A stretch of DNA of 64,000 nucleotides from Eledone cirrhosa (taxonomy: Eukaryota), in NCBI GenBank assembly GCA_964016885.1, contig OZ024741.1:127472001-127536000 (forward strand), in the 5' to 3' direction. The position numbers were made by a program, and so were the translations under genes. Every line of letters begins with the position of its first letter. Positions within the stretch are counted from its first letter, which is position 1. The notes below the pieces were generated by a model, which was not told the DNA's origin, made no database searches, and saw only the letters and a list, made by a program, of their open reading frames with translations. Below are positions 12,215 through 64,000 of this stretch, in pieces.

Positions 12215-12420
12215 AAAGCAATTACTGCATGGATGAATAATTTTAGTCATTTAAAAACATACAAAAACTGTTAACTTCATTTTATTTCTTGATGTCAACA
12301 TTTTTGTTGTACTGTTGCACACAGCATCACAGAAATTTTGACAGGAAATAAATGATTTAATGTGAACATTTTTTGTGTTTTTAAATGGCTAAAATTACTT
12401 TTCTATCCAGTAATTGTTTC
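12215..12420. repeat. Long imperfect inverted repeat (fold-back element)
   Basis: caattactg..taattttagtcatttaaaaaca..ttatttc is mirrored by gaaataaa..tgtttttaaatggctaaaatta..cagtaattg. Confidence 0.75.
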
Positions 12421-15400
12421 TTAATGTATATATTTTTAGTGAAATTTATGTGGTAATGAATGAGGTTGAATTTGATTTGCTACCAGGGTTGGAGTGAGGG
12501 GTCCATTGTGTACTATCAACATATCATTTTTTTTTTTAACTTCAAATATGTTTGTTATTTCGCATGTTTCTTCCTATTGAATGTCTGCTGACTTCTGCTT
12601 TTCCACTGGTCATTGGCTGCAGAAATTTTCTATTTTTGTTTTTTCTTATTCTTTTTTCTAAGAAAATGTGTGAATGTCTTAAACTGTTTCTTTCGCCTCT
12701 TTATATCTCTGTTTCTCCCTCCCTTTTTCCTTCTCCCTCTTTCTAAATTTTGGAAATATTCTTTTTTTTTAAATTTCCTTTAAAGGTATTTTTGTGGTAT
12801 TCTTCATGGATATATAAATATATTAAACCTTTTGCTATAATTTTTAATAAAAGACATTGTCTATGGTTTTCAACTCATTTTGAAAATAATGGATAATTTG
12901 GAGGGATTTAGTAATAGACATGACTGTCTCACTAAGCTGGCATTTGGAAGAAGGGTTTTAGATAGATATAAACATTTTAACCTTTTTGTTACCATATTTC
13001 TAATAAAAGACACTGCTTATGATTTTGTAATCATTTTGAATTTAGTAATATAACTTTCTCATTATTAAGATGGCGTTTAGAGCATAACTTAACAAAAGTT
13101 CTTACATAAAATTATGGTGGAAGGTTTTTAGATAAATATATACTCGATGAATTAAGCTGTTTTGTAATGTTGAACCAGGTATCAAAATAGTTAAATATTT
13201 TTATGGCACTAAAGAAAAAATTCAACTTTTGTAGTGTAGTTGTAGTTACATTCAGTGTAGTCTCTCTGAGATTTCAACATAGGTCTGGTATATATATATA
13301 TATATATATTTATTATATATGCACATAATGGTATAGATAGATTTGGTGTGTGTGTGTATGTATATATATATATATATATATATATATATATATATATAAA
13401 TAAAAGAGAAAGAATTTTCGTCATTTTTAATATTATTATAGAAAAGTAGTCTAAATAGTAGGGGGAAAATGGATATTTTTGGTGAAGCTACTTTCAAATT
13501 CCACTCATCATTTCTAAATGCACGTTTATATATATATATATATATATATATATATATAATATCATCATCACCACCACCACTACTGGTTAACTTCCATTTT
13601 TCCTTGCTAGCATGGGTTAGGCAAATTGTCCCATTGTGAGACAAGCCAAGTCAGATGACCATGTCTTGCTTATAACAGAACTGATTTTGGCTTGGTTTCT
13701 ATGGCTGATTGCCCTTCCTAACACCAACCACATTTACAGTGTGTACTGGGTGCTTTTTGCCGTGTCACTACATGACCACTGTACAGTGTGGGCTGGGTTC
13801 TTTATGTTATGACACCTACATGACCACTTTACAGTGTGTGTGGGGGAGGTAGATATACGTGTGTGTGTGTGTGTACACACATACACACATACACACAGAT
13901 ACTCATATAGATCATCATCATCACCATTTTACGTCCATTTTTCCATGCTAGCATGGTTTAGACAAGTTGTCCTGTTGTGGGCAATGTCAGGTCAGGTGAC
14001 CATGTCTTGCTCATACAGAACTGATTTTGGCTTTGTTTCTACAGCTGGATGCCCTTCCTAATGCCAACTTCATTTACAGTGAGTACTGGGTGCTTTTTGT
14101 CATAACACCTACATGACCACTTTACAGTGTAGGCTGGGTGCTTTTTGTTGTGACACCTACACGACCATTTTACAGTGAGCGGGTGGGGTGGGGCATACTG
14201 TATATATGCTTCAGCTTCGGCCTGTGGTAGTGCTGAAGAAATTAAGTGGGTGTTAATGGTGCTTCAGCACCATTAGCTCAAACTCCCTCTCTTACACTGA
14301 CCTACAGACACACTCTCTCTTCCCTTTGCTTCTTGGATCTTGTGGGACACATGCCACCTCCACTCATCTTTTCTCGTTTCATCACCCATGTTGTTTTCAA
14401 CCTCCACCAACCCTTGACATAAACTCTACTACACCCCGTCCTTCCTACCCAGAGCATCAGTCCTCTGGAACTCCTTCCCTACTTGTATCTTTTTCAAAGG
14501 AGTGAAGCTGCAACAATTTACAACATCAATGGCATCGATATGTCCAGTCTCAAAGGGCCTGTGAAGGGCACTGCCATTTCCTCTTGATGTACATAATCAA
14601 AAAATAAGTTAGTTTAAATAAGTATTGGTAGATTGAGAAAGTGAGGAAGAGTTGGTGGGTTGGGTGCCTTAGTGGTTAGAATGTAGGACTTGTCATAAGC
14701 TCATGAGTTCGATTTCATCATGTGTTCTTCAGCCAGACACTTCATGTTGCTTTTCATGACAGGACAAGGGCCCCTACATCATTAAAACACCCAGGAAAAT
14801 TCCTGAGTTACAACCTCGTATGAAGCCAACTGAACCTTCATATGTATGAGCTATAAAACAATATATATATATATATATCAGCATCATCATCATCATTTTA
14901 CGTCCGCTTTTCCTGGGTGCAGTAAGTTATATTTGAAAAATGAGAAGAATGACTTCACTGGTGGTTGGTGTTCTTTCATAATTCAAATCATTATTGATAT
15001 TAGTTCTGGTAATATTAACAATGACTTATTAAAAGAATACTAATCACCATTGAAAAAAAAATTTTTTTTTTTCATATATATATATATATATATATATATA
15101 TATATATATATATATATATATATTATAGGCTTTCTGATGAAATGTAATAAATAATTAAGCATTACATATGATTGAACAATATATATTGTAGTCAATATAT
15201 GGAGACAATTATAATAGACACATGTTAAAGCAAATAAATTCCTAATCTCCTTCTCGGCGACATTTTATTTTTCTTGGTGCAATACTTGCTTATAAATAAA
15301 TAAATAAATAATAAGGTCAACATTATTGAAATGTTAAAAGTTAGGTGGTACTAGAAGTGTATTGATATTTAATTTTAAAACTGTTGCTTATATCCCTTTT

Positions 15401-16831
15401 GCTTCCATTATTTCTAATGAAAGACACTGCCTACATTTTTCAAATAATTTTGGCAGGACTAATTAAAATATTTAACTTTTTCATTAAGTAGATGTTTGGA
15501 ACATAGCAAAAAGGGTTTTGTCTTTAAATTATGGGATATTATAATTTATCATAATTTTATTTCCTTTCTCCATGCTGCATGTGTTGGACAGGCTGTCACA
15601 GTCTGAGACCAGACTGATCAGAGCAACCTCATCTTACTCAAAAATTTTATAATTTAAATACAAAGAACTTAAAATTAACAATTTTGTATGAAAATTAGGG
15701 CCAGTCTCAGTAGGGTTGGTATTAAATGTGTTAATCATTTCTGAAGATGCAGTGACTCTGAATAAAACCTTAAATGTTAACATTTTTGGTGGTACAATAA
15801 AATACACCCAGTCCACACTGTTAAGTGGTTAATAATAGGAAAGGGCATCGAGCCAGTAAAACCATACCAAAACTATAATTAGATCTAAAGTTAAGGGTAC
15901 AAAAATGGGCTTTGTATTTTACATGACTATGCATGTTCAGGAATTTTTACTGAGCTTAAAAACACTTATTTGAAATAGCAAGATTGCAAATATCTGTTGA
16001 AGAAAATTACTAGAAATGCATTATGTCAAGTTATTATATTTCTCAAGAATTCGAAAACTTGTTTTTAAAACAAGAAGTAGGATAAGTCTACTTGTTTTAG
16101 AATCTTTAATGACATGAGAAACTGAATATTGTTGTGAAACATGTGTGTGTGATTGAGATTTTGATGGATAATATGGTACAAGTTAACAAAAAAATTTACA
16201 TAGACAATGGCTGTACTAAGGGGTAGTATTAACACAGGATTGTAATTCATTCCTGTTTTTTTTTGTTTTGTTTTTTAGCTTCAGAAATAGGGGTCATATA
16301 CTCAAGCTTGAAAATCATAGACAGTGTCTTTCATTAGAAATAGGGTACCGAAAGGGCTGTGATGAAACATCAGTTTTGCTTATATATGCATTCAGTGCTT
16401 TGTTTTTTTCTTTTTCATTCTTAATATTTATATATTTTTTTATTTTGCTGTACAACTGATAAAAATATGGTTGGTGCCTTTTTAAAACATGAACAAGCCT
16501 TGTATAACATATCTCTTTAAATATCTTATATCTAAAACCCATTTGTTGTATGTTGGGCGATTAACTTTGTATTTTATGCATGTCTTTGTGTAAAAAAAAA
16601 TTACCTAACTAACCATAGTGCTCATCAAATGTTTAAACTATCTCCTCTCTTTTTGCATATATATTTGTACTAATCCATCTTCCTCTCTTCACTTGTTTTT
16701 CAATTTATTATTATTTCATATATATATACTTATACATACATGCATAGGTATGTATGTATGTGTATATATATATATATATATATATATAATATGGAAAACA
16801 AAGAATCAGTAATGCATTGGAACAATTTATT

Positions 16832-16924
16832 ACGTATTACAATTGTTTCTCCGGTGAACAGCTCGAGGTACGATCTATTTGTGGATCGAACCTGACTCTG
16901 GATTCGCGAGTTCCTCAGATACGT
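16832..16924 (-). ncRNA. Type I hammerhead ribozyme motif (Penelope-like-element type)
   Basis: Minus strand reads acgtat-CTGAGGA-[62 nt structured stem II]-GAAAC-aatt-GTA-atacgt: perfect 6-bp stem I, intact CUGANGA/GAAA core, GUA triplet, palindromic stem III ACAATTGT. Confidence 0.75.
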
Positions 16925-63056: not shown

Positions 63057-63057
63057 A

Positions 63058-63371
63058 TTCATCATTTCATTTTACGTCCACATTTTCCCTGTTTGCAAGG
63101 GTGGGACGGGAACTGATTCTGGCTTGATTTCTACAGCTGGATGCCCTTCCTAACACCAACCTCATTTACAGTGAGTGCTGGGTGCTTTTTTGCCGTGGCA
63201 CCTCCACGACCACTTTGCAGTGGAATGATAGGGACCCCAGTCCTATCATCTCATTTCTACAGCTGAGTAAACTGGAGCAATGTGAAATAAAGTGTCTTGC
63301 TCAAGGAAACAACACATCACCTGGTGTGAGAATTAAACTCACAACCTTTCGATTGCAAGGCCAATGCTCTC
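63058..63371 (-). mobile_element. tRNA-derived SINE with LINE-type tail
   Basis: Reverse complement of the 57591-type element. Confidence 0.88.
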
Positions 63372-63599
63372 AATATGTATGTGCGCGCACGCACGCACGC
63401 ACGCACGCACGCACGCACGCACGCACGCACGCACGCACGCACGCACGCACACGCACGCACACACACACACACACACACACACACACACACACACACACAC
63501 ACACACACACACACACACACACACACACACACACACACACACACACACACACACACACACACACACACACACATATAGTAATAATAATACATATGCAGA

Positions 63600-64000
63600 C
63601 TAAAATCCAAAGAGGGCTCGATAGGGATAAATATATAAGAAGCGTAGAGCAAATATTTATTAAAATAACAGATTAAAGTTTAAGCAAAGAACTGGCTGCT
63701 TTCACCCTTAATCGGATCTTCTGAAACTAAAAAAAAAAAAAAAAAAAAAAAAAAAAAATCAATCTGTGAACGCTGAAGTAAATATTTTGAAAAACGTTGC
63801 AACCGAAGGAAGACAGGAAAACGATACTTTGGTTCGTGGAGACGTAGTTTTAAGTATTTCTTCCTGCTTGGTACGGGTATGTTCTTTGTAGAAATATTCA
63901 GATGTTTCTGCATGATGAATATAAGTCAATAGAGTACTCAGTCAAGGGAGCCAAATAGTAAATATAATAAATTTGAAAACTAACATCCAAAGAGGGTTCG
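63600..64000 (-). mobile_element. Possible Penelope-like element 3' end with decayed hammerhead
   Basis: Direct repeat atccaaagaggg(c/t)tcg at about 63605 and 63985; minus strand cAGAAGA-tccgattaagggt-GAAA-gc; short ORF remnant upstream. Confidence 0.35.

What the first reader, a model, noticed from the sequence alone, without database searches (positions are those of the whole stretch)
12215..63730. A locus-wide family of small hammerhead-bearing fold-back retroelements
Seen: at least 8 unrelated-looking hairpins or motifs (12215, 16832, 23472, 34272, 36917, 37256, 38924, 44499, 57244, 63685), mostly nested in (TA)n. The clearest ones (16832, 23472, 34272, 36917, 57244) share a grammar: CTGANGA-variable stem II-GAAAC-short stem III-GTH. 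In 34272 and 36917 this is followed by a conserved tail (gctctgta...tacatagagc..ttttcctt..cggaaa); a weaker version (gctctacc..gagtacc) follows 23472. Stems are preserved although primary sequences differ. Known: Penelope-like elements make inverted terminal structures and carry minimal hammerheads; retrozymes are non-autonomous relatives. Inference: a diverse non-autonomous ribozyme-retroelement system that seeds long dsRNA hairpins into host introns and 3' regions, in a lineage known for heavy ADAR editing.
Basis: partly seen in the sequence, partly recalled or inferred. Interest (0 to 1): 0.75.

Follow-up and report, generated by a model that had tools for sequence, protein, structure and literature searches.

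The report
Hydra-type Penelope retroelement stumps
The hairpins are real high-copy repeats, but they belong to nine separate families rather than one, and the five families with a hammerhead-ribozyme core (one of them a variant) are cut-short, often mirror-image ends of Penelope-type jumping genes (three traced to a protein-coding body, one through a close relative, one likely a tiny passenger), a layout already described; a small hairpin shared by their tails likely marks where copying starts.

Summary
All ten sites are real multicopy repeats (about 500-3000 first-look candidates each in this 3-Gb genome; 57244 through 23472, 63685 through its ORF). They form nine unrelated families, not one. 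Five families carry a hammerhead core and/or a shared tail hairpin: 16832, 23472+57244, 34272, 36917 and 63685. Four (12215, 37256, 38924, 44499) have no canonical hammerhead. Walking upstream tied 16832, 34272 and 63685, and a sister subfamily of 36917, to RT/GIY-YIG ORFs with Hydra-clade motifs. The layout (inverted 5'-truncated copy, direct copy, one-sided tail, (TA)n target, hammerhead with U.U at the base of stem II) is the published insertion pattern of Penelope-like elements. Only 16832 keeps an intact core in this window, and fold-back pairing is predicted to block the ribozyme. They are not tandem retrozymes. No RNA data were available, so expression and editing are untested. Two points are less ordinary: a tail hairpin also present in published coral and sea-cucumber Hydra consensus sequences, and family 23472, whose 61 sampled copies share nothing upstream of stem I, so it may be a ~130-nt non-autonomous element. 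This scan reached the same reading before on other DNA.

The parts
16790..16946 (-). Family B: solo, tail-less, 5'-truncated 3' end of a Hydra-type Penelope-like element; the only intact hammerhead in the window (core 16912-16918, GAAAC..GUA 16838-16849, 6-bp stem I 16919-16924 with 16832-16837)
   Evidence: RT, EN, hammerhead end and tail on one strand in L530
23468..23668 (+). Family C fold-back: inverted arm about 23470-23525, direct arm from 23529 (core 23531-23537, cleavage site deleted), tail with hairpin 23592-23611; between two exons of the PHD-finger gene
57240..57297 (-). Family C fragment: one tail-less arm, core C3U (57288-57294)
34270..34535 (+). Family D fold-back: inverted arm 34272-34363 (5' core on minus strand 34374-34380), direct arm 34379-34470, tail hairpin 34475-34495; about 330 nt after the gene's likely stop codon
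36915..37195 (+). Family A fold-back: inverted arm 36918-37020, direct arm 37027-37129 (core 37044-37050, A6G), 65-nt tail with hairpin 37136-37156
63586..63900 (-). Family E: 3' end of a young Hydra-type element (copies 97% alike), variant core CAGAAGA at 63717-63723, tail hairpin 63616-63650
37205..37445 (-). Family F fold-back with one-sided tail; no canonical hammerhead, no Hydra tail hairpin
44498..44822 (+). Family G fold-back with short one-sided tail; core-like CUGACGA word in the family, no canonical fold
12170..12419 (-).
38920..39085 (+). Family I fold-back, old and degenerate; no hammerhead
20440..33945 (+). Host context: exons of a double-PHD-finger gene (DPF/d4-like, name recalled) near 20440-20555, 25200-25310, 32442-32524 and a likely last coding exon near 33850-33945
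   Evidence: (PF00628, E 1.8e-07 for the 32442 exon; the other two exons tested gave no Pfam hit)

Best explanation
The hammerhead-bearing sites are short, often mirror-image 3' ends of several separate repeat families that, where traced, lie downstream of Hydra-clade Penelope-like RT/GIY-YIG ORFs, and they were likely inserted by that enzyme. Inferred mechanism: the enzyme nicks (TA)n DNA and starts reverse transcription at two internal sites of uncleaved element RNA. The outer start gives the direct copy with its tail, the inner start the tail-less inverted copy, and a conserved hairpin at the start of the tail is the likely recognition signal. Both copies usually stop just 5' of the hammerhead, which may be the RNA's 5' end. 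The hairpins are therefore insertion by-products. Their ribozymes decay, and the arm-to-arm duplex is predicted to block them if transcribed. Family C likely uses the same enzyme as a ~130-nt non-autonomous passenger. The four hammerhead-less fold-backs have the same arm-arm-tail layout and are likely ends of older or other Penelope-like families (not traced).
For: Shown: B walked 2.2 kb upstream through a microsatellite-rich UTR to an EN ORF, with RT, EN, hammerhead end and tail on one strand in L530. The D arm lies downstream of a Hydra-like EN on the same strand in 8 of 30 loci, one being the query locus. The E end lies downstream of the EN in 27 of 30 loci, one being the query locus. A extends into a shared UTR in 10 of 30 loci; a sister subfamily (98% over the last 58 nt) follows a Hydra EN in 1 of 6 loci fetched. 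Hydra motifs CxCX5C and CxxC/CxH are in the B and E ORFs (definition read in PMC8557442 section 11). Inverted arms vary in length and occur in 18 of the top 40 A hits, and end at a fixed tail-less point. A copy's two arms are closer to each other (0.96) than to other copies (0.913); the own arm is the best match in 15 of 23. Tail-only queries put few 5' ends at the cleavage site: A 2 of 30, C 1 of 30, B 0 of 30. Hammerhead fold penalty: 6 kcal/mol in a solo A arm, 78 in the fold-back. Literature: inverted copy, 30-40-bp tail and (TA)n bias (PMC8557442 passages); opposite-strand hammerhead pairs 100-700 bp apart (PMC4209133); tail = stretch between two RT start sites, cleavage not needed, unprocessed RNA the main substrate (PMC11167929); U.U at the base of stem II in 14 of 25 Hydra families of File S2, counted by eye.
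Against: Family A proper is linked to an ORF only through a sister subfamily and by back-to-back arrangement; 5 of 6 fetched loci showed no A end. Family C has no ORF link. F, G, H and I were not walked to any ORF. Pfam gave no hit for 5 of the 6 retroelement ORFs and a sub-threshold GIY-YIG hit for the sixth; clade assignment rests on motifs and visual comparison with the published alignment, with no tree. DKT and RWx motifs were seen only in related ORFs (L518-L520), since no N-terminus of B, D or E was recovered. The tails here are 60-100 nt, longer than the 30-40 bp described. The covariation score of the tail hairpin was reached by 58 of 500 shuffles. The two-start model comes from a Poseidon element of a lizard, not a Hydra element. 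5' ends were mapped against one reference per family, so some stop early where subfamilies diverge.
Confidence: 0.87

Rival explanations
1. One non-autonomous, ribozyme-driven fold-back retroelement system (retrozyme-like) whose fold-back RNA is itself the unit that is copied and which seeds dsRNA for ADAR editing.
For: All 40 scored hits of the full 36917 query span nearly the whole fold-back; many copies keep intact cores (A 30 of 43, B 27 of 33 tail-bearing copies with the core region present); several sites lie in or just after a gene.
Against: The full-length hits reflect the query: arm-plus-tail and tail-only queries show solo, extended and variably inverted copies. Centres differ from copy to copy. 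B, D and E lead to ORFs. The families share no sequence beyond core and tail. The fold-back is predicted to block the ribozyme. No head-to-tail array of these units was seen in the alignments and flank listings.
Confidence: 0.05
2. Family C (23472/57244) is also just the end of an autonomous element whose long copies are rare, its fixed 5' end being the mRNA start copied from the upstream tail, not a separate non-autonomous master.
For: A and B also pile up 5' ends just upstream of the core (A 16 of 30 within 2-19 nt; B 10 of 30 within 24-39 nt). In PMC11167929 the tail is the start of the next unit; the published Hydra-1_Ajap consensus begins with the tail hairpin; a tail remnant precedes an ORF start in L518.
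Against: None of 61 distinct tail-bearing C copies shares sequence beyond about 8 nt upstream of the core, whereas 7 of 30 A and 6 of 30 B copies extend far upstream. At least three C subfamilies with covarying stem I all start at the same point.
Confidence: 0.4
3. The hammerhead-less fold-backs (12215, 37256, 38924, 44499) are DNA-transposon MITEs or Helentron-type elements unrelated to Penelope-like elements.
For: No canonical core and no Hydra tail hairpin; no ORF link tested.
Against: Each has a one-sided tail and variable centres and arm lengths instead of fixed terminal inverted repeats, the same layout as A-E.
Confidence: 0.2

Closest known systems
Hydra-clade EN+ Penelope-like elements (Craig et al. 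2021, PMC8557442; includes Hydra-1_Obim of Octopus bimaculoides). Seen: passages, section 11, supplement part 2 and supplement search passages
   Same: C-terminal GIY-YIG with CxCX5C linker and CxxC/CxH motifs, no CCHH; 3' hammerhead, often with U.U at the base of stem II; (TA)n targets; inverted 5'-truncated copy and one-sided tail; the same tail hairpin is present in three published consensus sequences.
   Different: Different families: five family-specific 13-mers were not found in the supplement (line breaks could hide a match). Longer microsatellite-rich 3' UTRs (about 1-2 kb), longer tails (60-100 nt), long or branched stem II, A.A as well as U.U at its base. The tail hairpin is not discussed in the passages read.
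PAc, Poseidon element of Anolis (Frangieh et al. 2024, PMC11167929). Seen: parts 1-2 of 4 (main text and start of methods)
   Same: Tail as optional extension; AT-rich targets; inserts keep the uncleaved hammerhead.
   Different: Other clade; its RT starts lie in an AC-rich stem-loop inside the ORF start, whereas here the candidate signal is an RCUC..GAGY hairpin 5-12 nt beyond the tail-less end.
Minimal type I hammerheads of metazoan Penelope-like elements (Cervera and de la Pena 2014, PMC4209133). Seen: parts 1-2 of 4
   Same: Core in the terminal repeat; many heterogeneous families per genome; mostly single motifs in truncated copies; opposite-strand pairs.
   Different: Stem III is present here (2-4 bp); the G10.1-C11.1 pair called highly conserved there is absent in 12 of 13 motif clusters surveyed.
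Non-LTR retrozymes (Cervera and de la Pena 2020, PMC7229834, passages; Li et al. bioRxiv 10.64898/2026.07.22.740005, parts 1-3 of 5)
   Same: Type I hammerhead, non-coding, related to Penelope terminal repeats; axolotl HHR_Amex2 also has U.U at the base of helix II.
   Different: Retrozymes are head-to-tail tandem repeats giving circular RNA; these are head-to-head or solo copies with a tail.

Membership tests
EN+ Penelope-like element (insertion unit) | RT plus GIY-YIG ORF upstream of the terminal repeat on the same strand | tested here: met
   B: L530, L166; D: 8 of 30 loci; E: 27 of 30; A only through a sister subfamily, 1 of 6; not met for C; not tested for F-I
EN+ Penelope-like element (insertion unit) | Variable 5' truncation with adjacent inverted copy | tested here: met
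EN+ Penelope-like element (insertion unit) | One-sided tail beyond the end of the inverted copy | tested here: met
   60-100 nt in A-E
EN+ Penelope-like element (insertion unit) | Hammerhead in the terminal repeat | tested here: met
   A, B, C, D at family level (only 1 of 11 D copies intact); E variant core; absent in F, H, I; doubtful in G
Hydra clade | CxCX5C linker, CxxC and CxH around the EN end, no CCHH | tested here: met
   B and E ORFs, and the EN linked to the A sister subfamily; degenerate in D
Hydra clade | DKT and RWK motifs in the N-terminal RT region | tested here: inconclusive
   Seen (DKT; RWR/RWN/RWI) in related ORFs L518-L520; N-termini of B, D, E not recovered
Hydra clade | Placement in the Hydra clade of an RT tree | not tested
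   No reference proteins were held as sequences; only visual comparison with the published alignment
Hydra clade | Insertion into (TA)n | tested here: met
   flanks (inspection; no statistic, and the genome is rich in (TA)n)
Non-LTR retrozyme | Head-to-tail tandem repeats, each with a hammerhead | tested here: not met
   window repeats and flank listings show solo or head-to-head copies
Non-LTR retrozyme | Expression as circular RNA | not testable with these tools
   no RNA holder listed
Active type I hammerhead | Self-cleavage | not testable with these tools
   fold predicted only
Non-autonomous mini-element (family C) | Fixed 5' end, no ORF-bearing extension, partner's 3' signal | tested here: inconclusive
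   0 of 61 sampled copies extend; Hydra-type tail hairpin and core present; sample is small against about 2800 candidates

The most novel reading that the evidence does not exclude
Hydra-clade Penelope-like elements carry a phylum-spanning RNA hairpin (RCUC..AUNGAGY) at the start of the tail that recruits the RT and sets its two start sites. Family C is a ~130-nt parasite made only of a hammerhead plus this signal, a Penelope-mobilised SINE equivalent, and the pile-up of 5' ends at hammerhead stem I maps the RNA start.
Probability: 0.35. Interest if true: 0.5.

Novelty: new member of a known kind. Interest (0 to 1): 0.22.

Why it matters
As it stands, little: it is the described insertion pattern of Penelope-like elements, in apparently uncatalogued families. 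It explains why genomes of this kind are full of 200-300-nt near-perfect hairpins (predicted -48 to -157 kcal/mol), which would be ADAR substrates if transcribed. If the tail hairpin is the RT signal and family C a true minimal passenger, they give a ready minimal substrate for the open question of how Penelope enzymes choose their RNA and make tail and inversion.

Tried and rejected
Rfam scan: no hammerhead model hit; the miRNA hits are microsatellite and hairpin artefacts below gathering scores. Window-level descriptor against shuffles: only a modest excess. De novo palindromic centre made by snap-back at a fixed point (suggested): dropped, because longer copies template that sequence. Mismatch at the base of stem II as a new ribozyme variant: dropped, it is tabulated for published Hydra elements and axolotl HHR_Amex2; a search for the numbered-pair wording found no paper. 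Ribozyme cleavage as the source of 5' ends: no excess at the site. B-box-like look of the family C loop III (consensus recalled): rejected as weak, no A box and subfamily C3 breaks it. Neptune and Poseidon ORFs from the GIY-YIG search (10596 candidates) are not partners of A-D. The Hydra ORF 3.8 kb upstream of an A copy in L238 belongs to family E, and the ORF next to it is an unrelated Poseidon-like element. One search was mis-aimed and returned another fold-back family. No RNA holder listed; the four runs laid were contigs with low even depth on unique sequence, as expected of DNA, and say nothing on expression or editing. A sequence look-up of 23472 in earlier findings returned nothing. The searches for a description of a Hydra tail hairpin listed no such paper; subscription journals, Repbase/Dfam entries and bioRxiv supplements were not visible and may hold these families.
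Full report
Setting. The window is G000:C2:127472001-127536000 of a 3.0-Gb animal genome. That it is an octopus is an inference from recalled repeat types and from earlier notes of this scan, not from a call. It holds exons of a PHD-finger gene on the + strand, with a likely stop near 33945. 23472 lies between two exons; 34272-38924 lie downstream of the likely stop. 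Whether they are transcribed is unknown.

Observation. Seven of the ten sites are long inverted repeats; 16832, 57244 and 63685 are single arms. Eight genome searches with the elements themselves each returned a multicopy family, with 522 to 2958 first-look candidates of which 40 were scored. 57244 belongs with 23472, and 63685 was identified through its ORF. That makes nine families, which share no BLAST similarity except the 34272/36917 tail. At window level the hammerhead descriptor is only modestly enriched (3 vs 0.57, reached by 2 of 60 shuffles with one core mismatch allowed) and Rfam finds no hammerhead. Only 16832 has an intact core with a good stem I. At family level the ribozyme fold is real. 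All conserved letters are intact in 30 of 43 A, 27 of 33 B, 10 of 28 C and 1 of 11 D tail-bearing copies that still hold the core region. Stems covary between subfamilies: three different stem I pairs in C and three different stem II sequences in A. 12215, 37256 and 38924 have no core in their family alignments, and 44499 only a core-like word.

What they are. Family B (16832) extends in longer copies through a microsatellite-rich UTR to a GIY-YIG ORF 2.2 kb upstream. Locus L530 has RT, EN, hammerhead end and tail in order on one strand. Family D (34272) lies downstream of a related EN in 8 of 30 loci, one of them the query. Family E (63685) ends a young family (copies 97% alike) in 27 of 30 loci, one of them the query, with ORF pieces up to 559 aa. 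Family A (36917) extends into a shared UTR in 10 of 30 loci. That UTR stands back to back with an inverted Hydra-type EN or ORF in L486, L503, L520 and L518, and one such EN is followed by a sister A end in 1 of 6 loci fetched; the other five showed no A end. The ORFs carry the CxCX5C linker and CxxC/CxH motifs that define the Hydra clade in PMC8557442 (section 11). Pfam recognised none of five ORF pieces and gave a sub-threshold GIY-YIG hit for a sixth, and no tree was built.

Anatomy. With queries that do not demand the fold-back, 18 of the top 40 A hits have an inverted arm. Arms vary in length and end at one fixed tail-less point. Within a copy the two arms are more alike (0.96) than arms of different copies (0.913), and the own arm is the best match in 15 of 23; this fits both arms being made from one template at insertion, or later conversion. 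This is the pattern drawn in PMC8557442 Fig. 2 (legend read), and opposite-strand hammerhead pairs were reported in PMC4209133. The unpaired base pair at the foot of stem II (U.U or A.A in 11 of 13 motif clusters) is also published: U.U in 14 of 25 Hydra families in File S2, counted by eye.

How it likely works. PMC11167929 showed for a Poseidon element that RT starts at two internal sites, that the tail is the stretch between them, and that ribozyme cleavage is not needed. The data here fit. With tail-only queries, 5' ends at the predicted cleavage site are rare (A 2 of 30, C 1 of 30, B 0 of 30), while they pile up just 5' of the core (A 16 of 30; B 10 of 30 at 24-39 nt) (mapped to one reference per family, so some ends are early). 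Inferred: uncleaved RNA is copied from the outer start (direct copy with tail) and from the inner start (inverted copy) into (TA)n, and the pile-up may be the RNA's 5' end. In a fold-back transcript the ribozyme fold costs 78 kcal/mol against 6 in a solo arm (one A copy), so the fold-backs are predicted to be silent as ribozymes.

The less ordinary parts. (1) A, B, C, D and E share a hairpin 5-12 nt beyond the tail-less end. A strict pattern finds it 3 times in the window (34475, 37136, 63650) against 0.17 in shuffles (0 of 100 reach it; the pattern was derived from these tails, so this overstates significance). On ten tail segments 86% of cells pair and the outer pair switches between G-C and A-U, but the covariation score is reached by 58 of 500 shuffles (one row is misaligned by a base). 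The same hairpin stands in three published Hydra consensus sequences: at the start of Hydra-1_Ajap and near the ends of two entries that, by the file's order, are Hydra-2_Amil and Hydra-2_Ajap. F, G, H, I and a Neptune end lack it. Two searches listed no paper describing it; earlier notes of this scan did report it. (2) Family C starts at stem I of its ribozyme. Among 61 distinct tail-bearing copies nothing is shared beyond about 8 nt upstream of the core, against 7 of 30 A and 6 of 30 B copies that extend far. Its core and tail are Hydra-type. It may be a ~130-nt non-autonomous element, but the sample is small and an autonomous parent with rare long copies is not excluded.

Not shown. Expression, editing, circular RNA, cleavage and enrichment in genes. 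No RNA holder was listed and the runs laid were uninformative on these points. Families F-I were not traced to an ORF.

Verdict. Observation partly confirmed; interpretation partly supported. These are new members of a known kind, Hydra-clade Penelope-like insertion stumps, found before by this scan on other DNA. Interest 0.22.

Noticed in passing
window 52061-52105 (-): Histone 3' stem-loop match (RF00032) at exactly the gathering score of 34 bits; no histone ORF was looked for.
   Followed up: no
window 35470-36462: 47-bp tandem array, 21 copies, 95% matches, between the 34272 and 36917 elements.
   Followed up: no
   Followed up: no
window 45699-45951: Inverted pair of a common short interspersed repeat; such pairs are another abundant source of dsRNA.
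   Followed up: no
window 37454-37800, 57583-57900, 62245-62560, 63059-63370: tRNA-like-headed interspersed repeat, 86-96% alike, in both orientations.
   Followed up: no
window 53067-55410 and 58060-59985: Broken LINE-type reverse transcriptase ORFs; not Penelope-like by tblastn.
   Followed up: partly
L092-L100, L076: A further fold-back family (J, 4097 candidates, inflated by (TA)n in the query) with an intact hammerhead in longer copies and a tail-hairpin-like motif; not in this window.
   Followed up: partly
L117:5700 and 6159; L126:538 and 1142; L131 downstream of 4990: Hammerheads of Neptune- and Poseidon-type elements: a 459-nt tandem terminal repeat, an inverted pair upstream of an ORF, and a canonical G10.1-C11.1 motif.
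   Followed up: partly
window 63695-63723 (-); L289-L317: The young family E keeps CAGAAGA in place of CUGANGA in all copies printed: either a dead ribozyme in a recently active element or a core variant.
   Followed up: partly
L520:2-2332 (-): A 777-aa or longer open Hydra-type ORF of another family, cut by the locus end.
   Followed up: no
L518:1395-1450: Remnant of the tail hairpin about 50 nt before a Hydra ORF start, consistent with the tail being the start of the next unit.
   Followed up: partly
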